Counted from the stretch's first letter, positions 8,323 through 51,030 are shown. The stretch is 64,000 nucleotides of DNA from Flavobacteriaceae bacterium (GCA_964215955.1 CAXPDR010000029.1:1073-65072), one strand, 5' to 3'. Notes: a model not told the origin generated them from the sequence alone. Made by a program: numbers and translations.

Positions 8323-8661
8323 GTGATTAAATTGAGTTTCTTTTTTTTAAGTTTCTTAACATTAATTAGTTGCTCAAGCATAAGCTTTAAATCTTCTAAT
8401 GCAATTTCTACAAGCTTTGATTTTAAAGATGATAAAGAGTCAAAAGTATCTGTAGAAATTTCTAAACCTTTCTATATGTGGGGGAATGTTCCTAGTGAAC
8501 AAGTTGTTGAAGTTGATAGAGTATTTGTAAGTAAAGGTTTTAGTGAAATTTCAAATCTTGAGATAAAAGAAATAAAAACAACAAAAAAGTTTTTGTGGAT
8601 GTTGGCTACTTTTGGCATGTACTATCCACAGACATTTATAATGAGTGCAAAAGCGAATTAG
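8323..8661 (+). CDS. small lipoprotein, Bor/Iss-like
   Basis: Lipobox FLTLISC. The C-terminal pattern FYMWGNVP...VEVD...LATFGMYYPQTF resembles the Bor-family pattern (FFVSGIGQ...LGIYTP). The track ORF starts at TTG 8281; GTG 8323 after GGGAAG is my preferred start. Confidence 0.45.
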   Translation: MIKLSFFFLSFLTLISCSSISFKSSNAISTSFDFKDDKESKVSVEISKPFYMWGNVPSEQVVEVDRVFVSKGFSEISNLEIKEIKTTKKFLWMLATFGMYYPQTFIMSAKAN

Positions 8662-8788
8662 TTTTGGTGGCCAAGGATGGACGCCGTATGGGCCAAGGAA
8701 GGCCCTTCCTATAAATTCCTTATATTTTTATTTATCTACTTCGTCGTTTCGTTTATTTATTCACTCGACGATCACTAGATCGACTCAC

Positions 8789-10198
8789 TTATCTAATAGG
8801 AGTATCCTGACATCTGTAGAGTTCAAATTCTCCTGGTGATTCAAGCTTGGATCTAGCGTCTCTTAAAGCTGTTCTTAAACCCTCTTCAACCACTGGATGG
8901 TAAAAAGGCATAGTAAGCATTTCTTGAACTGTAAGCTTCATTGCCATTCCCCATGCAATCAAGTGAGCGAGATGCTCACCATCTGGAGCAAATAACTCAG
9001 CTCCCAAGATTTTTCCACTAGAGCTTTCGGCGAATATTTTAAGCATTCCCTTTTCTTTAAGCTTAACGATACTTCTTCCTTGCCCTTCAAAGCTTACAAA
9101 ACCAGTAACAAAGTCTTGGTTTTGTTCTTTGAGTTCTTTATATCTACTACCTATTGTTGCAATATTGGGATCTGAGAAAGTTATTCCAAGCATGGGTCTC
9201 TTTTGAAAACATTGCTTACCGTTGACAGCATTGTGACCTGCTATGAATCCTTCATCTGCTGCTTCGTGAAGAAGAGTTCTTTCTGCAGTAACATCTCCAA
9301 CGAGATAGAGGTGTTCAAAGTTTTTTAATGAAAAATCGCTTTTATTAAACTCAGGAACTTTTCCCTGTAATTCTGGGGCTAAGTTTTCTAAGCCTAGGTT
9401 GAAGACATTTGGTCTTCTTCCAACTGCGACGATGGCTTTATCAACGGGAACTCTTTTTCCATCTACTTCGACTAGAAGTTTACCATTTTCGGTACCTACT
9501 AAATTAGCACCATTTGTATATATGGGCATTTCTTCACTTAACTTTTTTATAATATAGTCTTGAAGCTCTGGTTCACTGGCCCCTCCAATTTCTTTTCCAA
9601 GACCTGCGGCCAAAACATTCACACCAATTCTATTTAAAGCCTGACCTAATTCTAAACCAATGACTCCAAGACCAATTACAGCTACAGTTTCTGGTAGCTT
9701 ATCTAATTCAAAAAACTGATCTGTAGTGATGATATGTTCTCTAAATTCCATCCATGGTTTTGGAATTATAGGACTTGAGCCTGTGGCAATGATAATTTTA
9801 TCTGCCTGAATCTTTTCATCACCAAGATCTAGGGTATTTTGATCTATAAACTTTGCACGTTTTCTGATCAATTTATCCTCATAGTCTGGAAGGGAGGATT
9901 TAACCCCACGGACAAATCTGTCTCTTAGAGATCTTACATGCTCCATGACCTTATCTTGGTTAACTCTAATATTTTCTGAACCAAATATTCCTTGTTGTTC
10001 TAAAGAATGTCTGCGATGAAAATCATTTGCAGCTTGAATTAAAACCTTTGATGGCATACAACCAACACGAGCGCAAGTTGTTCCCAGCGGGCCATCATCA
10101 ATGATGGCGTAATTATCTGTGATCTTTGCAACTTCTTTTCTTGCTGTTAACCCAGCAGTCCCTGCTCCAATTATAACTACATCATATCTTTTCATCAT
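8789..10198 (-). CDS. pyridine nucleotide-disulfide oxidoreductase, dihydrolipoamide dehydrogenase/glutathione-reductase family
   Basis: FAD fold VVIIGAGTAGL, redox-active disulfide GTTCARVGCMPSK, NAD fold VIGLGVIGLELGQ, and a C-terminal dimerisation His-Glu region FYHPVVEEG. Confidence 0.8.
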   Translation of the reverse strand: MMKRYDVVIIGAGTAGLTARKEVAKITDNYAIIDDGPLGTTCARVGCMPSKVLIQAANDFHRRHSLEQQGIFGSENIRVNQDKVMEHVRSLRDRFVRGVKSSLPDYEDKLIRKRAKFIDQNTLDLGDEKIQADKIIIATGSSPIIPKPWMEFREHIITTDQFFELDKLPETVAVIGLGVIGLELGQALNRIGVNVLAAGLGKEIGGASEPELQDYIIKKLSEEMPIYTNGANLVGTENGKLLVEVDGKRVPVDKAIVAVGRRPNVFNLGLENLAPELQGKVPEFNKSDFSLKNFEHLYLVGDVTAERTLLHEAADEGFIAGHNAVNGKQCFQKRPMLGITFSDPNIATIGSRYKELKEQNQDFVTGFVSFEGQGRSIVKLKEKGMLKIFAESSSGKILGAELFAPDGEHLAHLIAWGMAMKLTVQEMLTMPFYHPVVEEGLRTALRDARSKLESPGEFELYRCQDTPIR

Positions 10199-13259: not shown

Positions 13260-13287
13260 TAAAACTTATCTATAATAGTGCCGATAA
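13260..13287 (+). promoter_or_regulatory. sigma-28 (FliA)-type promoter, TAAA-N16-GCCGATAA
   Basis: TAAA at 13260-13263 and GCCGATAA at 13280-13287, followed by the AAAGGAG SD at 13298 and a start at 13304/13313. Confidence 0.55.
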
Positions 13288-15450: not shown

Positions 15451-15477
15451 TAAATTTTAGTCACTTATAGCCGATAA
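15451..15477 (+). promoter_or_regulatory. sigma-28 (FliA)-type promoter, TAAA-N15-GCCGATAA
   Basis: TAAA at 15451-15454 and GCCGATAA at 15470-15477, a perfect match to the enterobacterial FliA -35/-10 core and spacing. It lies 65 nt upstream of the GLUG paralog 1 ATG. Confidence 0.65.
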
Positions 15478-15541: not shown

Positions 15542-18500
15542 ATGAAATTTATTAATTTTGCGTTTTTAATTTTGACTTTTAATTTTGTTTCTTGTTCTCA
15601 AGGGCCTGGAAAAACTAATGTCAAAATATCCCTGGCAGCAATAAGTGGAAGTGAAAAATTCCCTGGTGGACTTTTTCTTTATGGGAAAAATAAATCAATT
15701 CCAGATATGGGTTTTGCCAGAAAAGTAAATGCAGATGATACTCTTGAGTTAGAACTTGAAAATGGTGACTGGGGTTTTGTGGTCATGGGGTGGGACGGTT
15801 CTCAATACTATGAGGGAAATGCATTTTGTGATGCTATGGCAAAAAAACTTGATGGTGCTGAAGTCAGTCTTTCTTTGGAAGCGACTAGGGCCAAATGTAG
15901 TCCAAGATATATAAATGGTACGAATGAGCTTTACAATGGATTTTATTCTTTAAAAATTCATACTTGTGCAGGCATAAGAGATCATATTGCGAATGGAGAA
16001 CCAATTCCTTCTAACTTTAAATGTGATGGTAGCATGGATATATTTGACGGAGGAATGAAGTCTTTTAAAGTTTACTTGGCTGAGTTTATGCCAGGAGAAG
16101 GGGAGCGTTTTTCAAGTGAGTCACGTTGTTTGACTACAACAAATTCCACAACTCCTGCTTCTGTTAATCTTCCTCTTGGATCAGATAAAATAAAGACTGC
16201 TGTATTGATCAAAGGATACTCAGATAGTTCTTGTACTTCAGAAGTTAAAAAATACGTTTTTAGAGATGGTATCAAATTTCCTGAGGATGATTTTAATGCC
16301 GCAGCAGTGCTAGATAGTGTAACAAAAACGGTAAATCTTTTTGCTCATGCTAAGTTGTGTAATGAGGCGCAAAAAAACTCACCAGTTTTTGCTGCAAGCT
16401 CAGACACAGATAATGATGGCTTGAGTGATACTCATTTAATTTGTACACCTACTCAGTTTGCAAGTATAGATGGTTTTCCAACTGATAATTTTATATTAGG
16501 TGCTGATATTGATATGAGTGGGTTGAACACAATAACGAGCACATTTTCAGGTAATTTCGATGGGCAAAATTATAGATTGTACGATGGTGTACAACCCATA
16601 TTTCAAGAAGTCTCAGCAAGTGGTACTGATATAAGAATTGAAAATTTAATTATAGATAATTTTCAGATAGATTATAATTTTGAACCTTCAACGAATACAC
16701 TTGGGATACTTGCCAATCAAAGCTATCCATCAGGTGGAAAATTAGAAATAACTAATTTGTATTTTAACTCGAATAATAAAATAGAAATCTCTGTGGCTAA
16801 CGGTGGAACTATTTCAACCAATACGTATCTTGGGGGATTAATTGGAGATGTCCAAGTTCAAACTAGTGGAAAATTAGAAGTTCGTGACATAAAAATGAAT
16901 GGTTTAGTTAGGGCTTATGATGACAATATTAGAGTTGGAGGTGTGTTTGGTCGCTTTAAAAATACCAGTGGTGAAAAACCAAAAGTTGAATCAAGCCGCG
17001 TTGGAACCTCTTCAGAAAAAATGATGATTCAAGGTTATCAAAAAATCGGTGGTATCGCTGGACAGATACAAGATGCAGAAGTTGTTCAAAAAACAGCGGT
17101 TTTTGCAAAGCTTAAAGGAAAGGATTTTGTAGGTGGGATTGTTGGTGATGCACTTGATGGAACTGAAATTAGAGATGCAAAAACAGATATTGAATATGTA
17201 CCATTCGATAGCTCTAACTCAAGAGTTGGTGGTATTATTGGTGGAATCGCAGGTGATTTCTCTGTAAAAGTAGATGGGGTCATGGCAAATTTGGTTGTCC
17301 TTGAGCCTACTGGGACTAAAAAAGTAGACCAATTAGGTGGTATTATTGGTGGAAAAAATTTTGGTTCTGGAGCTGTTAATCCTTTTCAAATTTCAAATTC
17401 AAAAGCCATTGTTGATTTTAATGTTAATGGACAATCTCATGGGGGATTGGTTGGAAGTCAATCTGTTACAAATGGAACACGAGATGAAATTAGAAATTCA
17501 ATTGCTATGGGGAGCTTACTTGAATCAAGTAGGGTAACGTCGAATATAAATAAAGGTGGATTCGCAGGGGACTCAAGTAACCTTAAGATCGAAATGTCAG
17601 TTGCAAGTTTTACTAGTATTGAAGGAGACCGACAATTAGGTGGAGGGATTGGTTATAGTAATAACACAATTTTAAATGAATCCCATATCAAAGGACATGT
17701 GGAATGTTTAAAAAATACTGCTTATCTTTCGTGTGGTGGTATTACTGGTCTAAATAACGATTCATTTAATACTGGGCACTTTGAAGACCTTTATGTGGAT
17801 GTAAGTCTGAATGTTCCAAACTTTGATGTAGATGGTAATAGTGGTTGTAGTCTTCAGAAGTGTGGACGACTTGCTGGAAATAATCTTTCTTCTTATATGA
17901 GTTTTGAGAGAATTTATCTGGTACAAAGCCAAATGCTAGATATGAATGAAGCAGATATTAGTTTTAATACAGGATCAGGGAATGTGACTCCAGGTGATCA
18001 CATAGACAATTTACAAACTGATGATTCCACAACTTGTAATGGAGCCATCCTAGGAAAATTTGATAATTCTCATGGTATTTTTTCCTCTTGTGGTTTATTA
18101 TTTGAAAAGCAGTGGCGAAGCTATGGTTTTGCGGGTGAGTACCTTGCTGGGAATTGGATTGAACCGTTTGAAATCTATTCAACTGTTGAATGGAATAATA
18201 TTAAAGCCGATGCTTTCTTAGTTCAACAGACTTTTAAGCTAATGGATGATTTAGATTTTGCCAGTGGAACTTTTGAACCTATTGGGTCAATTTCCAATCC
18301 TTTTTCGGGAAGAATTATTCCGAATGGGAAGACTTTGAAAAGAATTAATTTCACAGCCGGAAATGATAATGCTGGTATCTTTAATGCCACAGGAAATGGT
18401 GCAAGTATAGGTTGGTATAATGATCCTCTTAAAATTTTTGATATGACGATTGATTGTACTTCTCAATTAAACTGTGGAGTCATTGGCCAAGCACAAGATA

Positions 18501-19195
18501 CGAATTTATTTGTTGTGGTTAAAGATGGAGATGTTTACGGTACTGGTGATAATTATGGGGGCTTAGTTGGGCTTGGAGTAGAAAGGATTAGTATTAATAA
18601 CTCTGGTTATGAAGGAAAGGTCCACGGGAATAGTAAAGTCGGAGGACTTGTTGGCTTTTTAAGTAATGGTGGTTCTGGTGGTGATCATCAAATTAAAAAT
18701 TCTTTTGTTAGAGCAAAGTTAATTCAAGCTGATGGAGGTTCAAGTTATAGTGGAGGATTTGTTGGTTTAATTAATTTAAATAATGAAGAATTGGAGATTG
18801 AAAACTCTTATCTTAAGTTCATAAACACTGGTATAGATAACTTTAAAGGAGACATAGCTGGCTTATTAATGGGTGGGATGAATTCAGGTTATAAGCTTAA
18901 GAATATTTTTGCTAATACAAAATATTTATCTCTGGCTTCTGGAACTACCTTATATAAAGGAGCATGGAATTTAGGTTCTGCGACTGACAACGGGAGAAGC
19001 TACACCCTTGTTGAGCCGGTTGCTAGAGGATATAGTGTTTCATCGACAGCTATGGATCCGAACTTTCCACTTGTTTCTAGAGAAGCCGATCTTAATACAG
19101 ATATGTACAGAAGAGACGGTGGTGGAAGCGTGTGGTATCAAGATGTGAACGGAGAAGTCTTTCTCGCTTGGGAAAAGGCACTTGGTTTAAAATAG
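15542..19195 (+). CDS. giant GLUG-repeat surface lipoprotein (paralog 1)
   Basis: Lipobox FNFVSCSQ. At least 13 GGhhG (GLUG-type) repeats, e.g. YLGGLIGDV, KIGGIAGQI, RVGGIIGG, KVGGLVGF. Pre-repeat motifs FSGNFDGQNY and NPFSGRIIPNGK. The N-terminal domain is homologous to the 36738-40580 product. Confidence 0.75.
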   Translation: MKFINFAFLILTFNFVSCSQGPGKTNVKISLAAISGSEKFPGGLFLYGKNKSIPDMGFARKVNADDTLELELENGDWGFVVMGWDGSQYYEGNAFCDAMAKKLDGAEVSLSLEATRAKCSPRYINGTNELYNGFYSLKIHTCAGIRDHIANGEPIPSNFKCDGSMDIFDGGMKSFKVYLAEFMPGEGERFSSESRCLTTTNSTTPASVNLPLGSDKIKTAVLIKGYSDSSCTSEVKKYVFRDGIKFPEDDFNAAAVLDSVTKTVNLFAHAKLCNEAQKNSPVFAASSDTDNDGLSDTHLICTPTQFASIDGFPTDNFILGADIDMSGLNTITSTFSGNFDGQNYRLYDGVQPIFQEVSASGTDIRIENLIIDNFQIDYNFEPSTNTLGILANQSYPSGGKLEITNLYFNSNNKIEISVANGGTISTNTYLGGLIGDVQVQTSGKLEVRDIKMNGLVRAYDDNIRVGGVFGRFKNTSGEKPKVESSRVGTSSEKMMIQGYQKIGGIAGQIQDAEVVQKTAVFAKLKGKDFVGGIVGDALDGTEIRDAKTDIEYVPFDSSNSRVGGIIGGIAGDFSVKVDGVMANLVVLEPTGTKKVDQLGGIIGGKNFGSGAVNPFQISNSKAIVDFNVNGQSHGGLVGSQSVTNGTRDEIRNSIAMGSLLESSRVTSNINKGGFAGDSSNLKIEMSVASFTSIEGDRQLGGGIGYSNNTILNESHIKGHVECLKNTAYLSCGGITGLNNDSFNTGHFEDLYVDVSLNVPNFDVDGNSGCSLQKCGRLAGNNLSSYMSFERIYLVQSQMLDMNEADISFNTGSGNVTPGDHIDNLQTDDSTTCNGAILGKFDNSHGIFSSCGLLFEKQWRSYGFAGEYLAGNWIEPFEIYSTVEWNNIKADAFLVQQTFKLMDDLDFASGTFEPIGSISNPFSGRIIPNGKTLKRINFTAGNDNAGIFNATGNGASIGWYNDPLKIFDMTIDCTSQLNCGVIGQAQDTNLFVVVKDGDVYGTGDNYGGLVGLGVERISINNSGYEGKVHGNSKVGGLVGFLSNGGSGGDHQIKNSFVRAKLIQADGGSSYSGGFVGLINLNNEELEIENSYLKFINTGIDNFKGDIAGLLMGGMNSGYKLKNIFANTKYLSLASGTTLYKGAWNLGSATDNGRSYTLVEPVARGYSVSSTAMDPNFPLVSREADLNTDMYRRDGGGSVWYQDVNGEVFLAWEKALGLK

Positions 19196-20976: not shown

Positions 20977-21169
20977 AATGAGTTTAAAGACAAAGTCTGG
21001 AAGCGAATGATTATATAACTTAATAACAATTGTTTGAAAGAGCTTCCAATTAATCTGGATTAGGGTGAATTATTGTTTAAATCTAATACTGATATACTAA
21101 CGCCTTCTAGCAAATATCCTTATGAAACAAATTATTGCTTCAGTTGTTTATTTTAACTTTAAACTCATT
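20977..21169 (+). repeat. MITE-like intergenic repeat, copy A (193 bp, 13-bp perfect terminal inverted repeats)
   Basis: The TIRs are AATGAGTTTAAAG (20977-20989) and CTTTAAACTCATT (21157-21169). Four internal blocks are shared with copy B: 20984-21003, 21040-21049, 21097-21110 and 21136-21150. Confidence 0.7.
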
Positions 21170-21202: not shown

Positions 21203-21796
21203 TTATTCTTCCTTGTGATAAAGGTATTGGTTTCCTTTGATATTTAAGGATTGCTTAAATTCATGGCGGGTTCTATTCCAGGTATGAACGACATGGCCGG
21301 TTTCTGAATCAATATAGGCTTCAAAGCTAAATGGCTTTCCAGCTTGATTTTTGAAACTTACTAGGACGTGTTCAAGATGTTTACCAACATTATCACTTAC
21401 TTTGATCACAGATCTTTTTAATTCAACCTTAAAGTCTTTAACTTGATTGTTAGGAATGAGTTTAAAGAAGTTTTTTTGATATTTTTCTTTCCAATCATCA
21501 TTTACCGAATTTGCAAGATAAAGGTCTTTTAAATTTTGAACTTTTCCTAAATAGATTCTTTTATTTTCTTTTTTTATTTGAACCGGGATATTTGGTACTG
21601 AGGCAATTTTTCTTGAAGCTGGTTTAACCGGATCAATATTTTCATTCTTGGTGACCACTGAACTAGAATCTTTTTTTTCTTTTACTTCATTTTTAGCAGT
21701 GTTCATCTTCTTTGAAGAAGGATTAACCAGGAGAAAAGTGCTAACTCCTATGATTAAGCTTAAAACGATAAAAATTTCTTTCTTCTTATTTTTCAT
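21203..21796 (-). CDS. membrane-anchored protein with PepSY-like C-terminal domain
   Basis: N-terminal TM helix (IFIVLSLIIGVSTFLLV). The C-terminus, HVLVSFKNQAGKPFSFEAYIDSETGHVVHTW, fits the PepSY pattern (…v.v…g…e..iD..TG.v…). Its start lies 1 nt after the upstream protease stop. Confidence 0.45.
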   Translation of the reverse strand: MKNKKKEIFIVLSLIIGVSTFLLVNPSSKKMNTAKNEVKEKKDSSSVVTKNENIDPVKPASRKIASVPNIPVQIKKENKRIYLGKVQNLKDLYLANSVNDDWKEKYQKNFFKLIPNNQVKDFKVELKRSVIKVSDNVGKHLEHVLVSFKNQAGKPFSFEAYIDSETGHVVHTWNRTRHEFKQSLNIKGNQYLYHKEE

Positions 21797-21797
21797 T

Positions 21798-24524
21798 TTA
21801 ATCTAAAACCGTAAATTGAAGGTTAATCACTTTGTATGGCTCATGTCCAATATACTCATAATCACTAAAGTCTTTTATATCTCCAGCTGATGCTCCTGCT
21901 GGAATATTATCAAAACAATCACTACAGTTAGAAAATCTCACTCTAAAGCGGCAATTAAACTTTGTTCCTGGTTCAATCCATTTATTGACTTCCATTACTA
22001 CGAGATGGCCAGAATCAAATGCAAAACCATCTTTATTCGCCTGATAAGTTTCAGACCATGTTTGTTGAGGATCAATTTTACCTAAGACACCCTGTGAAGC
22101 TCCTGGTAAAAATCTCATAAGGCATTCATTAGGATTAAAATCATCTCCTGATTTAGAAGGATTATTTAAACAGTCTGAATCTTCAAGTCCAATAGAGTAG
22201 TTTCTAAAAAAGTCTTGAGAAACCCATTTGGTTTCATTTTCATCACTGTATTGCACGAGACAAATAGGTTGGGGGGCATCTAAATCATATTTTGGAAATA
22301 CTTTATCTACACCGTCTGTTTCGGATTTATCTAATTTCTTATTTGTTTTTGAAATTGTGGCACAATTTCCAGGAGTACTGGTACTAGAATCAGTAACTCC
22401 ACCTTCGGATGAACTTGGAAAACCATCAACCATACATGGAACATGGGTTGCAACTCCACCAGTTATATCTCCGTTACTAAGTGCCGTTTTATTGCTCATT
22501 TTATTAGTATAAGTATTGGATGTACTCGTAAGTTTCATATGATCCCAGTCATTGGCCAGAAACTGAACCCCACCCATTGGAGAGTTCGAGTTATTAAATA
22601 GATTGAGTGAAACCGCTACAACTTCACCTGGGCTAATTTTTACATTTCCATTATTATATTCTGTTCCTGCAATGCCTTCCGTTGGACTTACTCTTTTTCC
22701 TTGGAAGGTTAGGTTGGTAAGTATGTTCTTCATATCGTTTTGACCATCGATAACAAAGGCAACAGCTTCCTCATCTAATTTTATAAAATCTTTAGAAATA
22801 AGAACTGATTGTTTACGATTATTTTCGTTTACAGCGGTGTTTAAAGGAATAGATTTGAGATATTTATTATTGAAAATATATCTATTATTATAAGCACTGT
22901 AGTAGGTGAGCGCGTTTGTATCAAGGTCTAATCCATTTCCTCTATCTTCATATGATCTAAATAGGAGTAATCCATAATCATCTAAAAGCTTCTCTGATGA
23001 ATCAACACTAAATTCAGGGCATAAATTATTTGATATATGGTAAATTATATTTTTACCAAAAATTCTAAAAAATCTTCGAAAGTTTGGAGGATTTACGACT
23101 TGAGTCCATAAAAAAGATTCGTCAGGATTTAAATTAGTAAAAAATAAATTCGCTAGTCCTGTATTGCTAGGATAAGTGTATTCAGAGAAGTAGTCAGAGC
23201 CCTTAGCGGTTAAGTCGCCAATCTCTGCTAGGGTTTCAGACAAAAGTAAAACGACATAATCAGTTGTTCTTTTATGGATATAATTTTTATCTGAACTTTC
23301 AAAAGAGCATCTATTTTTAAACTCTTTCGTTAGAGCGACAAGATAATGAGAAATAGTTCCTGAAGCGTAGTGAACATCTTCAACTGGCACTAAAGGGTTA
23401 CCTGGGTCATAATGAACGTGTTGTGGATAAGATAGTCTTTGCCCAGATGCTTCAGCTACATCTATTGAATGCTCTTCTTCACTTTCAGAAAGAGGACGAT
23501 ACTTAGTAATTGTAGAGTCTCCATTTTCATCTTTTGAAAGAGTTCTTAGCTTATAGAAAGCAAATTCTCCAAAGCTTGTTCTGTTATTCATATAATATGC
23601 AAAATAATCTGCGATTCCTTCGTTTATAGCTCCGGCTTCATCATAATAAATTTCCCCAAGGTCGGACTCATAATCATGGGCCGAGCTATAAGGAAGTGAG
23701 GTTCCAGGATCAATACCTTTGGTTACATTTCTTTGGTTCATCATGGTTTTGACAAAAACATGTCCCATTTCATGATAAATAATACTTGGATCTTGAACCA
23801 TTCTAAATCCAGCTGTGTCATAACCAAAACAAAGTATGTCTTCAGCAGGACTGAAATAGGCATTATATTCCAAATAACATTTTGAATAAGCCTTAAGAGT
23901 TTTTTGAATTCCTTTATCTTGAATCAAAATAGAACCAGTATCTAAAAAGTTCCACTTAGTTGCTGGTGGAATAGCCAATTCATCTTTATCAAGGTGAACA
24001 GATTTATGGACAAAACTCATTGTATCTAGGAAACGATTGAGCATTGTATTTAAATGATAAAAAGTATTTACCTGGTAGAATTCGTCCGAATTTTTATCAA
24101 AAACCCAAGACTCATTTTGATTTTGTAGGAGAGTGGTTGATGCATTATCATCGTTAAGTACCGCCAGACATTCATCATCTGTTACAGAAGTTTTTAAACT
24201 TGATTCAGATGGATTAAAAATATTTGGAAAGTATTGCTTTACTTCACAATCAGAGTGAAGGGCAGCATTGTCTGTGATAAATTGTGGTTCTAAAAAACCT
24301 GAGAAGTTTGTACTTGTGGTGTATTTACCTTTCATGGCGATAATATTGTCGGGATAAATAAGTCCTTGATTAGTACCAGCATAAACATTAGCATCTGATC
24401 TTCTTACCGATTCAGTTTGTGTGTTTTTTAAAATGTCAGTACAGGCACTACTAAGAAGAGCAATAGAACTCAAAAGAGCTATGTTTTTGTACTGTGAATA
24501 TAGTTTATTTAAACTCTTTTTCAA
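21798..24524 (-). CDS. thermolysin-like (gluzincin, M4/M36-like) zinc metalloprotease lipoprotein
   Basis: Lipobox LLSSACTD and a TTG start after an AAGGA SD. HEMGH lies at 23760-23774, followed by EAGAINEGIADYFAYYM, which resembles thermolysin ESGAINEAISDIFG (third zinc-ligand Glu). There is a large C-terminal extension. Confidence 0.7.
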   Translation of the reverse strand: MKKSLNKLYSQYKNIALLSSIALLSSACTDILKNTQTESVRRSDANVYAGTNQGLIYPDNIIAMKGKYTTSTNFSGFLEPQFITDNAALHSDCEVKQYFPNIFNPSESSLKTSVTDDECLAVLNDDNASTTLLQNQNESWVFDKNSDEFYQVNTFYHLNTMLNRFLDTMSFVHKSVHLDKDELAIPPATKWNFLDTGSILIQDKGIQKTLKAYSKCYLEYNAYFSPAEDILCFGYDTAGFRMVQDPSIIYHEMGHVFVKTMMNQRNVTKGIDPGTSLPYSSAHDYESDLGEIYYDEAGAINEGIADYFAYYMNNRTSFGEFAFYKLRTLSKDENGDSTITKYRPLSESEEEHSIDVAEASGQRLSYPQHVHYDPGNPLVPVEDVHYASGTISHYLVALTKEFKNRCSFESSDKNYIHKRTTDYVVLLLSETLAEIGDLTAKGSDYFSEYTYPSNTGLANLFFTNLNPDESFLWTQVVNPPNFRRFFRIFGKNIIYHISNNLCPEFSVDSSEKLLDDYGLLLFRSYEDRGNGLDLDTNALTYYSAYNNRYIFNNKYLKSIPLNTAVNENNRKQSVLISKDFIKLDEEAVAFVIDGQNDMKNILTNLTFQGKRVSPTEGIAGTEYNNGNVKISPGEVVAVSLNLFNNSNSPMGGVQFLANDWDHMKLTSTSNTYTNKMSNKTALSNGDITGGVATHVPCMVDGFPSSSEGGVTDSSTSTPGNCATISKTNKKLDKSETDGVDKVFPKYDLDAPQPICLVQYSDENETKWVSQDFFRNYSIGLEDSDCLNNPSKSGDDFNPNECLMRFLPGASQGVLGKIDPQQTWSETYQANKDGFAFDSGHLVVMEVNKWIEPGTKFNCRFRVRFSNCSDCFDNIPAGASAGDIKDFSDYEYIGHEPYKVINLQFTVLD

Positions 24525-24537
24525 ACTCTATCCTTGT

Positions 24538-27500
24538 TTATTGGCTCAGTCCCATAGACTGTCCCCAAACATTTCCTAGTTGTTGGAAAGTTGCTCCGTA
24601 AATATCCTTACCAACACCGTTGGCATTTACGCTATTACAAACGGCGACAGAAATTTGTCCTGCACGTTCTCTTTGTTTTTTACAATTATAAGCAGCAGCA
24701 TAGGCTTTAAGCTGTTCTTCATATTTTTCTAAGAGATCATCGTAATTATTTGGTTTAGCACTACATTCACTCATACCAAGCTCTTTTAGAAGATTTTTGT
24801 TTATAAAACTTGAGTAGTTACTTGCAGTTACTTCGGTCACTGAGTCTTTATTTTCTGTGGTACATTTAACAAAATTAGGTTTATCGTAACAAATTTTTTG
24901 AGTATCAATGGCTTCTTTAATTTTTTCTTCATCACAAAACTTTCCATCAAGTTTTGCAAGTTCTTCATATTTATTACAAGTTTTTTCACCACTTTCAAAT
25001 AGTTCTTTTGCGCTACTATTGTTACAAAAGCTTTCTGCGGATATATATTGAGATTTCTCACCTTTCATTAAAGGTAGAGTATCATCAGAAATTTCACATT
25101 TTGAATCCCATGATCTAATTTGGGCTATGGCAGCCTTATCCTGGGCGGAGGCATTTGGATTCATAGGATTAGCCGCCGCTAGTTGAATGACTTTTCCAAG
25201 TTCTGTTGCTAGTTCTTCCGTATCGACTTTGTCAGGATCTACGTTAAAGGCCTGAAGACTTCCACAAGCTCTATTTAGATTTTCATTCATTTCACTTTCT
25301 TGTTGTGCCTGCTGAGATTGAGCTTCGGCGACACCATTTAAGGCTTGATTACAATCTGCGATGACTCCTTTCCAGTATGATTTATTGTTCTTGTAATTAT
25401 TTAAATAAGTTGCTTTTTGTGCTGCAACTGAACCACCTTTTCCATTAGAACCAAAGTACTCACTTCTTTGTTTGGCCATGGCCTTAATCATTTCATTACT
25501 ATCACTAACTAGTGCGTTAAGATAAGCTTCTGGATCTTCCATCATTAAGCTCTCATCAATTCCTTTTAAATAGCTTTTCTTACTAAGCTGAAACTTAAGG
25601 TGTGGTGTTCTAAAAATTCCCCCAAGATCCATTTGAGCATCGATAGATCTTGATTGTCTTTCTAATTCCATATTTAGAGCATTCATTTCAGATTTTAAAT
25701 CTTTTACTAACTTTTTGACTTCAGTGTTATAGGCATTGGTTGCATTATACTGCTCTGTTTTTACCGCTGTGAAAACCGAATTAACTTGAGAATAACAGGC
25801 CTTCATATTAGAAGCACATTTGGTAGCAGTTCTTAAACAAAAATTTTGGCCATTAATATTTAAGGCTCCATCACAACTTTTACTAGCAACACCTGTCGTT
25901 GTATCCCAGTTACAAGTTTTTAATTCTTCTTTTATTGTTGAGTTTAATGAAGAAGCTGCAACTTTTCGAAGATTAGTCATTTCCATAGAGTATTTTTTTA
26001 ATTCATTTACTGCTTGAGCCTGAGAATAACCACTTGGATTTGAAGGATTTCTGGAGTTGAATTTTCTCTCACATTGATCCTTAAAAATACTTAAGTAACT
26101 AGATGCACGCATCGGAACTGATGCTGGAATAGTTTTATTTTCAAGAATTATTGATTGATTTGGAATAAAAACATAATTTTTAAATCTTTCCTTAGCTTCT
26201 TCTTTCTCGACAGCTTTAATCATATCGTCAATTGTTCCGCCGCTTGCTAAAGCTCTAGAGATGATCCCAGCATAGGCATTGTCCTGACCTTTTAAGTTTA
26301 TTCTTGGGTTTTTAAATTGTCTTGAGAACTTTTCAATTCCACCCATCTTTTTAGTAATATAGTCACCAGTAAGACAAGCATTTTTTTGATCGAGTTCATA
26401 TTGATCTAATTTCTTTAAAAGGTCTTTGTATGAAGTAGGGTTATCTTTTTTCTGTACACTTGCTAGGTATCTTCCTAGGGTATTTGACGAATCAGAACCA
26501 CTAGTGACTTCAGCTATATTATATTGAGTCATAAGCTTTTGTTGTTTGGACTTTTGTTCTGACTCAAAGTTTTTCAAAATTTGAGCAAGAGCTGGGTTTT
26601 TCTTTGGAAATAATTTTCCTCTGTAAACCACGCCGTCTTTGTCAGGTGAGATGGAGTTTCTATTACTCATATCTGAGGTGATATTATTCGCTAGTTGATC
26701 AATCTCTTTTTCGATTTGTTTACTTCGAGTCAAAAGGGATTGACCTGACATTCCTCTCGAATTGTCATTTATTTTATTGTACATATTATCTTGAATTGAC
26801 CTAAGTCCACCGCTTTTTCCAAGTTTTTGAAGTTCCGCACCATCGGTTAAAGAACCACATGTATTATTAGGATCTTTGTTGCCTAAAAGTAGTTGGGAGA
26901 ATTTTCCATCTTTGTGGTATTTATCAAAATCTTTTCCACCATCCAGTAGGGCACTAGTCGCTTTAACTGTGGCCACTATTGGTTCAGCTTTGACTTGAAA
27001 ATCATCTAGTAGCTTTTTTAAGTTTTTTTGGTAAGCACGAATTTGTTCTTCTCTCGCTAGGAGTTGTGTGTTTGCATTTTTAATGGCCTCATCATAACAA
27101 GTTAATCCTTGAGAGGTTTTTGTTTCGTGACCTTTTGTGGTGTAGTTTTCCAGTTCATTAAGGTTTTCTTCAGCGAGCTCCATAAGAGCGGCGGCATAAC
27201 CACCTGCAAGTTGTTGGTGATCTGTATTGCTACATTTCATTCCATCAGAAAGGGAGTTTGGTCTGGCCGGTAAAACGATACAACCTCTAAACACTCCTGG
27301 TACTTGTTGGGGGTCTACAATTTGACCTGCTAGACTTACATGAGATCTTAAACTTTCTTTGTATTGATTAATATTCCCATTATTGGCCGTTTGCATATAG
27401 CCTGATACACCTGCAGTTAGGGCATTAGTGAAATAACCTAGGTATCTGGCACCAGTTGTCCACATCGATTCTTTTCTAGAAACATCTTGTTGTGCTTGCC

Positions 27501-27585
27501 CATAGGCTAACGGTCCAAGACATAGCTCAAAAATAATGAGTAAGTTTAAAACTTGAAAAATACTTTTTAATTTTGCTCTAAGCAT
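24538..27585 (-). CDS. large secreted helical/coiled-coil protein, unknown function
   Basis: 1,015-aa ORF with a signal peptide (LLIIFELCLGPLAYGQA). The composition is long, heptad-like and rich in K/E/Q/N, with scattered Cys pairs. It is the first gene downstream of a sigma-28-type promoter. Confidence 0.6.
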   Translation of the reverse strand: MLRAKLKSIFQVLNLLIIFELCLGPLAYGQAQQDVSRKESMWTTGARYLGYFTNALTAGVSGYMQTANNGNINQYKESLRSHVSLAGQIVDPQQVPGVFRGCIVLPARPNSLSDGMKCSNTDHQQLAGGYAAALMELAEENLNELENYTTKGHETKTSQGLTCYDEAIKNANTQLLAREEQIRAYQKNLKKLLDDFQVKAEPIVATVKATSALLDGGKDFDKYHKDGKFSQLLLGNKDPNNTCGSLTDGAELQKLGKSGGLRSIQDNMYNKINDNSRGMSGQSLLTRSKQIEKEIDQLANNITSDMSNRNSISPDKDGVVYRGKLFPKKNPALAQILKNFESEQKSKQQKLMTQYNIAEVTSGSDSSNTLGRYLASVQKKDNPTSYKDLLKKLDQYELDQKNACLTGDYITKKMGGIEKFSRQFKNPRINLKGQDNAYAGIISRALASGGTIDDMIKAVEKEEAKERFKNYVFIPNQSIILENKTIPASVPMRASSYLSIFKDQCERKFNSRNPSNPSGYSQAQAVNELKKYSMEMTNLRKVAASSLNSTIKEELKTCNWDTTTGVASKSCDGALNINGQNFCLRTATKCASNMKACYSQVNSVFTAVKTEQYNATNAYNTEVKKLVKDLKSEMNALNMELERQSRSIDAQMDLGGIFRTPHLKFQLSKKSYLKGIDESLMMEDPEAYLNALVSDSNEMIKAMAKQRSEYFGSNGKGGSVAAQKATYLNNYKNNKSYWKGVIADCNQALNGVAEAQSQQAQQESEMNENLNRACGSLQAFNVDPDKVDTEELATELGKVIQLAAANPMNPNASAQDKAAIAQIRSWDSKCEISDDTLPLMKGEKSQYISAESFCNNSSAKELFESGEKTCNKYEELAKLDGKFCDEEKIKEAIDTQKICYDKPNFVKCTTENKDSVTEVTASNYSSFINKNLLKELGMSECSAKPNNYDDLLEKYEEQLKAYAAAYNCKKQRERAGQISVAVCNSVNANGVGKDIYGATFQQLGNVWGQSMGLSQ

Positions 27586-27612: not shown

Positions 27613-27639
27613 TTATCGGCTCTAACTGGGTGAAATTTA
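27613..27639 (-). promoter_or_regulatory. sigma-28 (FliA)-type promoter, TAAA-N15-GCCGATAA
   Basis: The minus strand reads TAAAtttcacccagttagaGCCGATAA. The -10 box ends 27 nt upstream of ATG 27585, with an AAAGGGA SD in between. Confidence 0.65.
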
Positions 27640-27793
27640 ACATTTAGCTAAATAAATCTTTCTTCTTTTATTATAAATTCTGGACTCAATTACTCAAAAT
27701 TAACCAAGATTTGTCCATCGAACACTTGGCATTTTGTGTCAATTAGTTAAACTAAATATATGGAATTATTTGATTTTTTATTAAAGGCACATA

Positions 27794-30244
27794 GTGTTTA
27801 AGAATATTATAAAAAATAAGAAGCTGGCTGAAAATAATGGCAGTGAGGATTCTAACCCATTGAAAAATGATGGGCTCGATCAAGTTGCGTATATTACAAT
27901 AACTCATGGTTCTAGTAGTTTATCTCACGAAATAGGGAATAAATTAACTATTGGCTCTGAGATTGGTGAGTTCATTTGTAAGTTCGATGGAATTGCCAGT
28001 AGACATTGTACTATCTTAAAAAATAATGAAGTCTTTTGCTTTATAGATCATGGAAGCGAGGAAGGAACTTTTTTAGATGGAAAACGTTTAGATGCTGGTA
28101 AAACTATTTTCTATTCAGAAGGAGATAGTATTAAATTTGGACCTAATAGGGCCATGATTGAATACAAATCAGTACCTGCTGATGATGCTTTAAAATTAGA
28201 TGAGTTTGAGGGTGAAGAATTTTCTGGAGAAATGGAAGAGCTACCAGCTACGCCGGTTGGAGAGAGTACAGTTGTACGAAACTTCAAAGAGCTTAGCCAT
28301 ATGTTGGAAGAGGCTGAAGCAGCTGAAACAAAAGAGGAGAGTGTATCAGATGATCCAGTTTTCAATAAGGCTGAAGGTTCTGATGGAACATTCAATCTTG
28401 ATGAAGCTTTAAATCAAAAAGAAAATCCTAAAAAAATAGATTTTGAGAATTATCGTCCTGATCTTTCAAATGTTGATGTTGAAGAGTTAGAAGTTGATGA
28501 AAGCATTTTGCAAGAAAGATTAAAGAAAACTTCAAAGCTCAGTAAGGTAAAAAGTAATAGTAAAACTAAAACCCGAAAAGGACTTAATAAGCCTATTCCT
28601 AGAAATAAAAAAGGTAAGAAGTTTAAATCGGTTGTGGTACCTGCAGCTAATACTCTTCAAAGATTAATGGCCATTGTTATTGATTCATTAGTGGCCTTAT
28701 CTATTTATAATGTTTTTTATGTTTTCGTAGATTTTAAAAAGTTTTTTGACGGCCTGCCTGGTTTATTTGGAATTATATTTAATCCAGTTTATGAGAATTT
28801 ATTTAAAAATCATGTGGAGAAATATGTATTGTCAGATGCTCAAGTTGAAGGATTTATAACTTCGATTTTATTGCATCCAAGTTTGAATTTAATTCTTTCC
28901 TTTATTCTTTTTATATATCTTATAAGGTGGTCAACAACCATTATTTTGGGGACAAGTATTGGCCAGAGGCTTATTGGGTTAGGTAGTGAAGAAGGACCTC
29001 TTAAAAAACGTATAAATGGATTTTTAAGAGAACTTTTAGGGTTTTTCTTAGCACCATTTATTCTTTTTGATTTACCTGCTTTATTTGGAAAGAGAACTTT
29101 AAAAGAATTAGTTACAAGGACGAGGATTTCTACTCCTGGAGTCTTTGTCTCTATGTTCTTATCTATGATCTTGATTCCATTTCTTGGTATCTTATTTATG
29201 ATTAGTCCCTTGATCAAAGGTTTAGAGACTTTGTCTCCAGTCATTACAAAGAAATCTCAATCTATTGGAAAACCATGGATGTATAAGGAACCTGTTTATG
29301 CCAGTAGTTTGAAAATCAAATATGAAGAATCATCCGAAATTGTCGATTTACCATTTTTCGAGATAGAACTACGAGATAATAAGAGGTTTTTGACTTCAGG
29401 GATAACTTATTTAGATCTTAAAACAGGCTCCTATTTGAATTTAAAAAAAGTAAAAGAATTTTCCATGTTCTCTGTTTTAAAAGAATATATCGACTTAAAT
29501 TATTTTAGTCGTTTTTTTGAGCCTTACCTGTATAAACGAATAAGGGAAATGGGTTCAACTACAGACTCCTTTAAGCGTGTTAGTGATAAACTTTCTAAGT
29601 CTTTAATTGAAGATCTAAATGGAGTTTTTCTTAATGCTTATGAGTTGGATGCAAGACGACTTGTTTCTCATATTGTAAGTGCTGGACCAATGTTGGCCGG
29701 TCATCGTGATTTTAGAGAGAAGTTGGATACAGTTTTAGAGAAACAGGTTAATTGGATAAGTGCTACTAAGCTTGGAGGAGTGTCGGGAATCTTGTTTGCT
29801 TTAAATATTCCAGAGGGAGAACAATACGCTTTTATCCCACACAGTGTTAGTAAATCAAGGGTTTATGTATTTTCTGAAGATCCGATGGACGCCAGATCTC
29901 AAAGACTATTTCATCCATTGAACTTTGCAGGTGATGGCAAAGATATCATTGAATCTGCTACTGGCCAATTTATCGCTGGATTTAAAAAAGATATTAATTA
30001 TGAAAATTTTGAAATCGCTCAAAAGGTATTTGAAAAATATTTTAATACGGCCAGGTACTTGATTGAAAAAAATAATATTAGCGGAGTCATTAATCTTCAA
30101 AATAATTTACAAAGACTACTTCAGATGTTGAAAGAAAATAAAAAAAGAAATGTGAAGCTTTATTTAAACCTTAATGAACTTCAACAAGCTATTAAGAAAC
30201 GTGATTACAACTACCTTCAGATTCAGAACACAAGGACTATTTAA
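27794..30244 (+). CDS. FHA-domain / RDD-domain multi-pass membrane protein
   Basis: N-terminal FHA pattern (LTIGSE...ASRHCTILKNNEVFCFIDHGSEEGTFLDGKRL). An acidic then Lys-rich linker follows, then an RDD-like TM region (RLMAIVIDSLVALSIYNVF...) and a large C-terminal domain. Confidence 0.7.
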   Translation: MFKNIIKNKKLAENNGSEDSNPLKNDGLDQVAYITITHGSSSLSHEIGNKLTIGSEIGEFICKFDGIASRHCTILKNNEVFCFIDHGSEEGTFLDGKRLDAGKTIFYSEGDSIKFGPNRAMIEYKSVPADDALKLDEFEGEEFSGEMEELPATPVGESTVVRNFKELSHMLEEAEAAETKEESVSDDPVFNKAEGSDGTFNLDEALNQKENPKKIDFENYRPDLSNVDVEELEVDESILQERLKKTSKLSKVKSNSKTKTRKGLNKPIPRNKKGKKFKSVVVPAANTLQRLMAIVIDSLVALSIYNVFYVFVDFKKFFDGLPGLFGIIFNPVYENLFKNHVEKYVLSDAQVEGFITSILLHPSLNLILSFILFIYLIRWSTTIILGTSIGQRLIGLGSEEGPLKKRINGFLRELLGFFLAPFILFDLPALFGKRTLKELVTRTRISTPGVFVSMFLSMILIPFLGILFMISPLIKGLETLSPVITKKSQSIGKPWMYKEPVYASSLKIKYEESSEIVDLPFFEIELRDNKRFLTSGITYLDLKTGSYLNLKKVKEFSMFSVLKEYIDLNYFSRFFEPYLYKRIREMGSTTDSFKRVSDKLSKSLIEDLNGVFLNAYELDARRLVSHIVSAGPMLAGHRDFREKLDTVLEKQVNWISATKLGGVSGILFALNIPEGEQYAFIPHSVSKSRVYVFSEDPMDARSQRLFHPLNFAGDGKDIIESATGQFIAGFKKDINYENFEIAQKVFEKYFNTARYLIEKNNISGVINLQNNLQRLLQMLKENKKRNVKLYLNLNELQQAIKKRDYNYLQIQNTRTI

Positions 30245-51003: not shown

Positions 51004-51030
51004 TAAATTAAATTTTTCCAATTCCGATAA
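51004..51030 (+). promoter_or_regulatory. sigma-28 (FliA)-type promoter, TAAA-N15-TCCGATAA
   Basis: TAAA at 51004-51007 and TCCGATAA at 51023-51030, followed by a GATAAGGAG SD and ATG 51059. Confidence 0.55.

What the first reader, a model, noticed from the sequence alone, without database searches (positions are those of the whole stretch)
21203..27585. Sigma-28-driven three-gene operon: giant helical secreted protein, thermolysin-like lipoprotein protease and stand-alone PepSY-like protein
The three minus-strand genes are tightly packed, with gaps of 13 nt and 1 nt, behind the 27613-27639 promoter.

The middle gene has HEMGH (23760-23774) plus EAGAINEGIADYFA. This closely resembles the thermolysin third-ligand segment ESGAINEAISDIFG, but with a much longer spacer (about 46 aa versus 19). 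It also has a lipobox and a C-terminal extension of about 550 aa.

The last gene ends in a PepSY-like pattern (FEAYIDSETGHVVHTW). In M4 proteases the PepSY domain is part of the inhibitory propeptide. Here it would be supplied in trans as a membrane-anchored protein, suggesting a protease plus a separate inhibitor or chaperone.

The first gene (1,015 aa, helical, with Cys pairs) has no recognisable family.
Basis: partly seen in the sequence, partly recalled or inferred. Interest (0 to 1): 0.6.

Follow-up and report, generated by a model that had tools for sequence, protein, structure and literature searches.

The report
Predator protease with separately encoded prodomain
A predatory Bacteriovorax-group bacterium encodes, behind a flagellar-type (sigma-28) promoter, an unknown giant secreted protein, a lipid-anchored thermolysin/fungalysin-like zinc protease with no built-in prodomain, and a small membrane-anchored protein whose fold best matches that missing prodomain; it probably folds the protease or keeps it in check, but this is untested.

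Summary
Three tightly packed minus-strand genes (gaps of 13 and 1 nt) follow an exact sigma-28 consensus, TAAA-N15-GCCGATAA. The -10 element is kept in 9 of 9 orthologous loci examined.

- **Middle gene:** a lipoprotein gluzincin. HExxH, the NExxxD glutamate and a later His are invariant. Its only significant PDB fold match is fungalysin (M36). It has a 27-residue insertion between the zinc ligands and no room for a cis propeptide.
- **Last gene:** a membrane anchor, a disordered linker and one helix-plus-four-strand domain. Its two best PDB fold matches are the cleaved propeptide chain of the M4 protease vibriolysin MCP-02. It shares the ID..TG.V...WN motif of M4 propeptides. At sequence level it stays below Pfam's PepSY cut-off.
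- **Linkage:** protease and small protein are adjacent in 33 of 33 genomes that have them, and both are absent from the same 3 genomes.
- **First gene:** the giant protein is an orphan with 20 invariant cysteines. It occurs in 36 of 36 genomes of the family and in none outside it. It can stand alone, and then it still keeps its sigma-28 promoter.

Most likely this is an attack-phase envelope module with a prodomain split off and supplied in trans. It is a new variant of a known kind. Function and co-transcription are untested.

The parts
27613..27639 (-). Sigma-28 (FliA)-type promoter, TAAA-N15-GCCGATAA, ending 27 nt upstream of the ATG of the first gene
   Evidence: Exact consensus. Only 8 such sites in the genome. 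The -10 box CCGA(T/A)AA is kept 21-37 nt before the start codon in 9 of 9 orthologous loci, 8 of them exactly CCGATAA; this includes three loci where the gene lies in a different context. FliA gene present.
24538..27585 (-). Gene 1: 1015-aa secreted, cysteine-rich orphan protein (signal peptide; 22 Cys in the mature part, 20 of them invariant)
   Evidence: ORF. No Pfam, NCBIfam or PDB sequence match, alone or as a profile. 404 representative clusters, nearly all ~900-1100 aa. Invariant Cys listed. Found in 36 of 36 genomes of the family and 0 of 165 outside it.
21798..24524 (-). Gene 2: 908-aa lipoprotein zinc metalloprotease of the thermolysin/fungalysin (M4/M36) superfamily. No cis propeptide, a 27-residue insertion between the zinc ligands, and a ~380-aa beta-rich Cys-containing C-terminal extension
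   Evidence: Invariant H251, E252, H255, E302, D306, H385, H393 and C28. AlphaFold pLDDT 84, pTM 0.87. Only significant PDB fold hit is 4k90_A fungalysin, E 1.1e-4, prob 1.00. hhalign to a canonical M4 gives E 4e-4 with both motifs aligned. Pfam Peptidase_M4_C scores 20.5 bits, below the 24.4 cut-off.
24441..24455 (-). Lipobox L-S-S-A-C (aa 24-28) of the protease
   Evidence: Sequence. Cys28 is invariant in 26 homologs.
23760..23774 (-). HEMGH zinc-binding and catalytic motif (aa 251-255)
   Evidence: Aligned to HEITH of a canonical M4.
23598..23639 (-). EAGAINEGIADYFA: third zinc ligand Glu302 and Asp306, in the position of the thermolysin-type NExxSD segment
   Evidence: Invariant E302, N301, D306. 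Aligned to GESGALNESFSD of a canonical M4.
21203..21796 (-). Gene 3: 197-aa bitopic membrane protein with an N-terminal anchor, a disordered linker and a C-terminal PepSY-like domain
   Evidence: ORF. AlphaFold model. Adjacent to the protease, same order and strand, in 33 of 33 genomes, and absent from the same 3 genomes that lack the protease.
21725..21787 (-). N-terminal transmembrane anchor of the small protein (aa 4-24)
   Evidence: Helix 4-24 in the model. Hydrophobic windows. No cysteine and no obvious signal-peptidase site.
21272..21559 (-). PepSY-like domain (aa ~80-175): helix 102-113 and strands 120-134, 137-149, 155-163, 169-173. Ends in the motif AYIDSETGHVVHTWN
   Evidence: pLDDT 89-97 across this region. 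The top two PDB fold hits are the M4 propeptide chains 3nqz_A (E 5.3e-3, prob 1.00) and 3nqy_A (E 2.3e-2, prob 0.98); chain identity verified. Motif shared with the Vsm and LasB propeptides.

Best explanation
This is a lineage-specific envelope module of the predatory family Bacteriovoracaceae. A FliA (sigma-28) promoter drives it, so it is probably made in the motile attack phase.

- **Gene 2** encodes an N-terminally lipid-anchored zinc endopeptidase of the thermolysin/fungalysin superfamily. Unlike its relatives, it has no N-terminal FTP-PepSY prodomain.
[quoted passage not shown] Its periplasmic domain is a PepSY-like copy of that prodomain. It most likely binds the newly exported protease in trans and acts as folding helper and/or inhibitor or tether. 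The enzyme would become active only once it leaves the inner membrane for the outer membrane or cell surface.
- **Why in trans (inference).** A cleavable N-terminal prodomain would separate the enzyme from its N-terminal lipid anchor. Supplying the prodomain from a separate gene avoids that.
- **Gene 1** encodes a disulfide-rich secreted protein of unknown fold. It is co-expressed but evolutionarily separable. It may be a partner or substrate of the protease, or simply a neighbour in the same regulon.

**Shown:** gene structure, motifs, folds, promoter conservation and strict co-occurrence.
**Inferred:** attack-phase timing, co-transcription, binding, inhibition or chaperoning, and localisation.
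For: **Promoter.** Exact consensus and rare in the genome. The -10 box is conserved in 9 of 9 orthologous loci, including three where the giant gene sits next to ArgRS. FliA is present at 270 bits against a 190-bit cut-off. A relaxed motif also precedes a flagellin, a CheY-like gene and many secreted or lipoprotein genes. In Bdellovibrio, FliA drives about two-thirds of attack-phase promoters, including proteases (PMC3627812; PMC5430801).

**Protease.** Catalytic residues are invariant. The model is confident. Fungalysin is the only significant fold hit. Both ligand motifs align to a canonical M4. HExxH lies only about 223 residues after the lipidated Cys, and the order of secondary-structure elements matches a mature N-subdomain. 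That leaves no room for a ~200-aa prodomain (inference).

**Small protein.** Helix-plus-four-strand domain with pLDDT above 90. Its two best matches among 350,542 PDB chains are the cleaved propeptide of vibriolysin MCP-02. The chain was confirmed as the propeptide because a published PepSY peptide maps to its last 33 residues. It shares the ID..TG.V...WN motif. One ortholog reaches 19.1 bits with Pfam PepSY.

**Linkage.** Protease and small protein are adjacent in 33 of 33 genomes and co-absent in 3 of 3. Their junctions overlap or abut. pI values are complementary, 4.9 against 9.8.

**Precedents.** RhpP/RhpC (PMC6490944) and SleB/YpeB (PMC13556211).
Against:
- PepSY is not supported at sequence level. 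Pfam gives E 0.15 in 1 of 19 members, and the best ortholog scores below the cut-off.
- hhalign against canonical PepSY carriers is weak, E 0.012-0.11. The PDB profile search finds nothing.
- Foldseek E-values for the propeptide match are only 5e-3 and 2e-2. The output does not say which part of the propeptide was aligned.
- Paralogs of the small protein in two genomes sit beside ricin-B-lectin proteins, not proteases. The fold may therefore serve as a general holder of exported proteins.
- No complex could be modelled.
- The small gene lies downstream of the protease, not upstream as a simple gene fission would give.
- The giant protein persists without the pair, so its role in the module is unclear.
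Confidence: 0.62

Rival explanations
1. The small protein is a general membrane-anchored holder or tether for exported proteins, in the manner of YpeB. It positions or stabilises the protease at the inner membrane without acting as a prodomain-like active-site inhibitor or foldase. Its likeness to the M4 propeptide is only a shared small alpha/beta fold.
For: Paralogs with the same architecture and motif abut genes for ricin-B-lectin secreted proteins that have no HExxH. YpeB's PepSY domains restrain a non-protease enzyme by positioning it, not by blocking its site (PMC13556211). Sequence-level PepSY evidence is sub-threshold. Other cystatin- and NTF2-like folds appear lower in the hit list.
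Against: The two best fold hits are specifically the M4 propeptide. The motif matches the propeptide's last strand, including the WN that follows it. The partner is a propeptide-less member of exactly the superfamily that normally carries this domain. Co-occurrence is strict, 33 of 33 and 3 of 3.
Confidence: 0.2
2. The three genes are neighbours in one attack-phase regulon and have no specific functional coupling. The protease is a self-sufficient surface or nutrient protease, and the small protein has an unrelated membrane role.
For: The giant gene occurs alone in three genomes. No direct interaction data exists. Many sigma-28 sites in this genome precede unrelated secreted proteins.
Against: Protease and small gene keep their order, strand and overlapping or abutting junctions in 33 of 33 genomes and are lost or absent together. 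This holds although the small protein has diverged to 16-47% identity in all but one of its relatives. That pattern is typical of obligate partners.
Confidence: 0.1
3. The giant Cys-rich protein is the physiological substrate or cargo of the protease. For example, it could be processed into an active surface or prey-directed factor, so the trio would form one maturation pathway.
For: Gene 1 leads the operon in all sampled genomes that have the pair: collinear in 30 of 33, and the other 3 are broken only by contig ends. In the three genomes without the protease pair, the giant is shorter (869-928 aa) and matches only profile positions ~157-843. Its termini therefore co-vary with presence of the pair.
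Against: This is purely correlative. Those three genomes are also the most divergent. The giant is universal and keeps its own promoter without the protease. No fold or domain information is available for it.
Confidence: 0.15

Closest known systems
M4 (thermolysin, vibriolysin MCP-02, LasB) and M36 (fungalysin) zinc metalloproteases with N-terminal FTP-PepSY prodomains
   Same: Gluzincin fold. HExxH plus NExxxD glutamate ligand plus a later His, all invariant. A PepSY-like domain is associated with the enzyme, and its best structural match is the MCP-02 propeptide.
   Different: - The prodomain-like domain is a separate gene product, encoded downstream and membrane-anchored.
- There is no FTP domain.
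- The enzyme is an N-terminal lipoprotein.
- A 27-residue insertion lies between the zinc ligands.
- There is a ~380-aa C-terminal extension.
- Pfam M4 and M36 models do not reach threshold.
RhpP/RhpC of Pseudomonas savastanoi (PMC6490944)
   Same: An M4-type protease without a propeptide, followed in an operon by a small co-evolving protein. That protein binds, stabilises and inhibits the protease; the authors call it a functional mimic of prepropeptides.
   Different: RhpC is an 11-kDa acidic cytoplasmic protein and is not described as PepSY-like. RhpP has no signal peptide or lipid anchor. Here the partner is basic, membrane-anchored, periplasmic and PepSY-like.
SleB/YpeB of Bacillus spores (PMC13556211)
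   Same: [quoted passage not shown] It is encoded in an operon directly after the hydrolase that it stabilises and holds inactive.
   Different: YpeB has three PepSY domains plus a helical bundle, and its client is a lytic transglycosylase. Here there is one domain, and the client belongs to the peptidase superfamily that normally carries PepSY in cis.
FliA (sigma-28) attack-phase regulon of Bdellovibrio bacteriovorus (PMC3627812, PMC5430801)
   Same: A sigma-28-type -35/-10 promoter (CCGATA box) in front of non-flagellar secreted proteins and proteases in an obligate predator.
   Different: Shown experimentally only in Bdellovibrio. Here it is inferred from sequence and conservation in the sister class, and these genes have no orthologs in Bdellovibrio.

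Membership tests
Peptidase family M4 (thermolysin) | HExxH with the third zinc ligand Glu in an NExxSD-type segment, plus a downstream catalytic His | tested here: met
   H251, E252, H255, N301, E302, D306 and H385 are invariant in 26 homologs. Both motifs align to a canonical M4 at E 4e-4.
Peptidase family M4 (thermolysin) | A 20-residue step from the second His to the Glu ligand | tested here: not met
   47 residues here (H255 to E302) against 20 in the canonical M4 of L034. The 27-residue insertion is modelled as a beta-hairpin.
Peptidase family M4 (thermolysin) | Pfam Peptidase_M4 (PF01447) and Peptidase_M4_C (PF02868) above the gathering score | tested here: not met
   Only PF02868 appears, at 20.5 bits against a 24.4 cut-off. 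There is no PF01447 hit and no NCBIfam hit.
Peptidase family M4 / M36 | N-terminal FTP-PepSY prodomain in cis | tested here: not met
   No FTP or PepSY Pfam hit. HExxH lies only about 223 residues after the lipidated Cys, and the order of structural elements matches a mature N-subdomain.
Peptidase family M36 (fungalysin) | Fold similarity to a solved fungalysin catalytic domain | tested here: met
   4k90_A is the only PDB hit with E below 0.001: E 1.1e-4, prob 1.00, 462 aligned columns, TM 0.44 on the target.
Peptidase family M36 (fungalysin) | Sequence match to the Pfam or PDB fungalysin family | tested here: not met
   No M36 family in the Pfam scan at E up to 1. No PDB sequence hit with the single sequence or the profile.
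PepSY domain (PF03413) | Pfam score at or above the 24-bit gathering score | tested here: not met
   The window protein gets no hit. One of 19 orthologs reaches E 0.15. In six-frame search the best ortholog scores 19.1 bits, E 0.0045.
PepSY domain (PF03413) | One helix packed on a four-stranded antiparallel sheet, structurally similar to the PepSY-containing M4 propeptide | tested here: met
   The model has helix 102-113 plus four strands at pLDDT above 90. The top two PDB fold hits are 3nqz_A and 3nqy_A, the MCP-02 propeptide.
PepSY domain (PF03413) | C-terminal strand motif (I/V)D..TG.(V/I), as in M4 propeptides | tested here: met
   YIDSETGHVVHTWN here, against FIDATTGDVLQKWN in Vsm and VIDAKTGEVLDQWE in LasB. 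D163 is at least 90% conserved and G167 invariant across 19 orthologs.
FliA / sigma-28-dependent promoter | TAAA-N15-GCCGATAA consensus at a suitable distance from the gene, with a FliA gene in the genome | tested here: met
   Exact match 27 nt before the ATG. TIGR02479 scores 270 bits. Conserved in orthologous loci.
FliA / sigma-28-dependent promoter | Transcription start at the site, and dependence on FliA | not testable with these tools
No RNA data could be laid on the region.
Bacterial lipoprotein | Signal peptide ending in a lipobox with an invariant Cys | tested here: met
   LLSSAC with Cys28, invariant in 26 homologs; consensus L..LSSC.
YpeB-type membrane-anchored PepSY regulator | Type II membrane anchor, disordered linker and extracytoplasmic PepSY domain(s), encoded directly after the client enzyme | tested here: met
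   TM helix 4-24, low-confidence linker ~25-78, domain 80-175. The gene lies 1 nt after the protease gene. YpeB description in PMC13556211. This is likeness of architecture only; it is not a YpeB ortholog.

The most novel reading that the evidence does not exclude
An N-terminally lipid-anchored thermolysin/fungalysin-type protease cannot keep both its anchor and a cleavable N-terminal prodomain. This lineage may have solved that by detaching the prodomain and anchoring it in the inner membrane.

That would create a spatial checkpoint. The reusable trans-prodomain folds and silences each newly exported enzyme at the inner membrane. Extraction by the Lol pathway to the outer membrane or cell surface pulls the two apart and arms the protease, and this happens only in attack-phase cells.

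The co-transcribed, family-universal 1000-aa disulfide-rich protein would be the protease's client or surface partner in prey attack.
Probability: 0.2. Interest if true: 0.7.

Novelty: new variant of a known kind. Interest (0 to 1): 0.5.

Why it matters
Thermolysin-type enzymes are textbook cases of folding assisted by an intramolecular chaperone. A natural system where the PepSY-like prodomain is a separate, membrane-tethered gene product would be a ready-made model for chaperone and inhibitor action in trans. It would also show how lipoprotein proteases are kept harmless inside the producer.

For predator biology, the operon is a near-universal, single-copy module of the Bacteriovoracaceae and appears to be driven by the attack-phase sigma factor. 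The protease and the orphan giant protein are therefore concrete candidates for prey-contact or invasion functions, in a lineage where almost no such factors have been characterised. The protease also defines an unassigned gluzincin family lying between M4 and M36.

Tried and rejected
- **Sequence-level assignment of the small protein to PepSY.** Pfam on 8 and then 19 orthologs, PDB profile searches and hhalign against three canonical PepSY carriers were all sub-threshold. The register of the weak alignments was nevertheless correct.
- **Word-based homolog search for the giant protein.** It returned only the query itself because common words saturated the candidate list. I replaced it with syntenic copies and the exhaustive profile search.
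- **Pfam, NCBIfam and PDB profile searches for the giant protein.** They gave only spurious coiled-coil matches such as STAT3 and keratin.
- **Reading the MCP-02 structure paper** (PNAS 2010, PMC2955107). It is not held. Chain identity was verified instead by mapping a published PepSY peptide onto 3nqy_A.
- **Internal promoters and terminators.** Their counts did not differ from shuffled sequence, so this was uninformative.
- **Apparent absence of the small gene in locus L012.** This was an artefact of the start-codon filter. The frame is intact.
- **A flagellar structural role.** I rejected this as the default reading. FliA is a general attack-phase factor in the related Bdellovibrio, and most sigma-28 sites in this genome precede secreted or lipoprotein genes.


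Full report
**What is there.** The window comes from a 3.76-Mb, ~34% G+C genome. Named homologs place it in the Bacteriovoracaceae/Halobacteriovoraceae, which are predatory Bdellovibrionota. Three minus-strand ORFs lie at 24538-27585 (1015 aa), 21798-24524 (908 aa) and 21203-21796 (197 aa), separated by 13 and 1 nt. The middle gene starts at TTG, behind an AAGGA Shine-Dalgarno.

**Promoter.** 27613-27639(-) reads TAAATTTCACCCAGTTAGAGCCGATAA. This is an exact TAAA-N15-GCCGATAA, ending 27 nt before the ATG.
- With up to 1 mismatch the window has 4 sites against 0.34 expected.
- The genome has 8 exact sites with a 14-16 nt spacer, against 2 for the reversed control. Three of the 8 are in this window.
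- The genome encodes a bona fide FliA, 270 bits against a 190-bit cut-off.
- A relaxed motif gives 44 sites. They precede a flagellin, a CheY-like gene and many signal-peptide or lipoprotein genes.
- In nine orthologous loci, a CCGA(T/A)AA box (exactly CCGATAA in eight) sits 21-37 nt before the start codon of the giant gene.
- Three of those genomes have the giant gene in a different neighbourhood, next to ArgRS. The promoter therefore travels with the gene.
- In Bdellovibrio, FliA-type sites drive about two-thirds of mapped attack-phase promoters, including proteases and surface proteins, and FliA is essential (PMC3627812; PMC5430801).

I therefore read the site as a real FliA promoter and infer attack-phase expression. 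Counts of internal promoter-like and terminator-like sites do not differ from shuffled sequence.

**The protease.**
- More than 250 full-length relatives were found, and every named one is labelled only "hypothetical".
- Across 26 diverse members, C28 (lipobox), H251, E252, H255, N301, E302, D306, H385 and H393 are invariant, as are many cysteines in the C-terminal half.
- Pfam gives only Peptidase_M4_C, below threshold at 20.5 against 24.4 bits. NCBIfam and PDB sequence searches give nothing.
- The AlphaFold model is confident, pLDDT 84 and pTM 0.87. Its only significant PDB fold match is the Aspergillus fungalysin catalytic chain 4k90_A, E 1.1e-4 and probability 1.00.
- A profile comparison with a canonical M4 protease from a sister genome aligns HEMGH with HEITH and DEAGAINEGIAD with GESGALNESFSD at E 4e-4. 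A 27-residue insertion lies between them, modelled as a beta-hairpin.
- HExxH lies only about 223 residues after the lipidated Cys. The element order (strands, a long helix, strands, then the active-site helix) matches a mature N-subdomain. My inference is that there is no room for a ~200-residue prodomain.
- Residues ~530-908 form beta-rich, Cys-containing domains with no match. That makes the extension about 380 aa, not about 550.

The enzyme is thus an apparently active, unassigned gluzincin family lying between M4 and M36.

**The small protein.**
- It diverges fast: 16-47% identity to all but one relative, against 39-60% for the protease. I recovered orthologs by synteny.
- The model built on 19 orthologs shows a membrane helix (4-24), a low-confidence linker, and a domain at residues ~80-175 with pLDDT 89-97. 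The domain is one helix followed by four antiparallel strands.
- Among 350,542 PDB chains the two best fold matches are 3nqz_A (E 5.3e-3, probability 1.00) and 3nqy_A (E 2.3e-2, probability 0.98), from the autoprocessed vibriolysin MCP-02.
- I confirmed that this chain is the cleaved N-terminal propeptide. A PepSY peptide of the related Vsm protease, printed in PMC5078317, maps to residues 148-180 of the 180-residue chain.
- The same search shows the motif in LasB pro-elastase (VIDAKTGEVLDQWEGLAHA). Vsm has FIDATTGDVLQKWNGLNH, and the small protein has YIDSETGHVVHTWNRTRH.
- Sequence statistics stay weak. Pfam PepSY gives E 0.15 in 1 of 19 orthologs. One ortholog, lying directly after its protease, reaches 19.1 bits in a six-frame search, against a 24-bit cut-off. 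hhalign gives E 0.012-0.11 in the correct register. The PDB profile search finds nothing.

I therefore call it PepSY-like by fold, motif and context. It is not a demonstrated Pfam member.

**Linkage across genomes.** The sample was 201 genomes of the phylum.

| Gene | Genomes of the family (of 36) | Outside the family (of 165) |
|---|---|---|
| Giant protein | 36 | 0 |
| Protease | 33 | only weak hits to the catalytic core |
| Small protein | 33 | only weak partial hits in 3 genomes |

- The same three genomes (G081, G113, G182) lack both the protease and the small protein.
- Wherever they are present, the two genes are adjacent in the same order and strand (33 of 33), usually overlapping or abutting.
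- Giant, protease and small gene are collinear in 30 of 33 genomes. The other three are interrupted only by contig ends.
- In the three genomes without the pair, the giant gene is shorter, sits next to ArgRS and keeps its sigma-28 promoter.
- The protease and small protein therefore behave as an obligate pair, and the giant gene is separable.
- Locus L012 first seemed to lack the small gene. It has the frame intact but no ATG, GTG or TTG start.

**The giant protein.**
- It has a signal peptide and 22 cysteines in the mature part. Twenty of these are invariant across 25 diverse members.
- The family has 404 representative clusters among 1.84 billion proteins, nearly all ~900-1100 aa.
- No family or solved-structure match exists at the sequence or profile level.
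- The best-conserved block is NFC(L/V)RTA.TCA.NM..C, around residues 581-597.
The "helical" description remains unverified, apart from weak coiled-coil-type matches.

**How it most likely works.** This is inferred. In attack-phase cells FliA transcribes the operon. The protease is exported and lipidated. The inner-membrane-anchored PepSY-like domain binds it as a prodomain supplied in trans, helping it fold and/or holding it inactive or tethered. Once the lipoprotein is sorted away from the inner membrane it becomes active at the outer membrane or surface.

A topological argument supports a trans arrangement: cleaving an N-terminal prodomain would cut the enzyme off its N-terminal lipid anchor. 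The complementary pI values, 4.9 and 9.8, and the translationally coupled junctions fit a stoichiometric pair.

Two tested systems give precedent.
- **RhpP/RhpC.** A propeptide-less M4 protease plus a co-evolving downstream partner that binds, stabilises and inhibits it. The authors call the partner a functional mimic of prepropeptides (PMC6490944).

**Caution.** In two genomes, extra paralogs of the small protein lie beside secreted ricin-B-lectin proteins that have no HExxH. The fold may be a more general holder of exported proteins. That supports the rival reading of tether rather than inhibitor.

**Novelty.** I found no published description of a membrane-anchored PepSY-like partner for a propeptide-less lipoprotein M4/M36-like protease. 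The parts and the principle are known, so this is a new variant of a known kind. Earlier notes from this scan report similar split prodomains in other genomes and the sigma-28 regulon in this genome. They agree with my reading but are not independent evidence.

Noticed in passing
window 15451-15477 (+), 13261-13287 (+), 51004-51030 (+): Further sigma-28-type sites in the window. One is an exact consensus 64 nt before the 1217-aa lipoprotein gene (15542-19195). One, with a 16-nt spacer, lies before a 126-aa lipoprotein ORF. One, with a single mismatch, lies before an 80-aa secreted ORF. Three of the genome's 8 exact sites are in this window.
   Followed up: partly
window 27726-27753 (+): A sigma-70-like TTGGCA-N16-TAAACT site lies in front of the divergent FHA-domain gene (27794-30244). 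The underlying blocks, seen as ...ATATTTAGTTTA... and ...TGCCAAG... on the other strand, are conserved in all six syntenic intergenic regions. The FHA gene and BacA are syntenic with the operon in most loci.
   Followed up: partly
L037 4670-5461 and 13857-14636; L038 4916-5458 and 8961-9566; L039 4652-5353; L040 5112-5828: Two genomes of the family (G138, G118) carry 2-4 extra paralogs of the small membrane-anchored PepSY-like protein, with acidic C-terminal tails. Two of them abut genes for secreted ricin-B-lectin-domain proteins (623 and 698 aa), and one abuts a 266-aa secreted protein with no family.
   Followed up: partly
L012 about 8600-9080 (+): The ortholog of the small gene is an intact ~155-codon frame (…SSFEAMVDEKTSQVIRTWNQTKFE…). 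It has no ATG, GTG or TTG start, and gene callers missed it. It may use a non-canonical start codon.
   Followed up: no
L030 5537-8323 (-), L031 5899-8562 (-), L032 4026-6635 (+): In the three genomes lacking the protease pair, the giant protein is shorter (869-928 aa) and matches only profile positions ~157-843. Its N- and C-terminal regions therefore differ exactly where the protease pair is absent.
   Followed up: no
whole genome G000: The Pfam PepSY model finds no match at E up to 0.1 anywhere in the window's own genome in six frames. Several sister genomes carry canonical ~570-aa M4/M36-type precursors with cis PepSY (for example L034 and L035).
   Followed up: partly
window 20977-21169: The intergenic stretch after the small gene carries inverted terminal repeats (AATGAGTTTAAAG ... 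CTTTAAACTCATT). Another reader flagged it as a MITE-like element. No intrinsic terminator was found after the operon.
   Followed up: no
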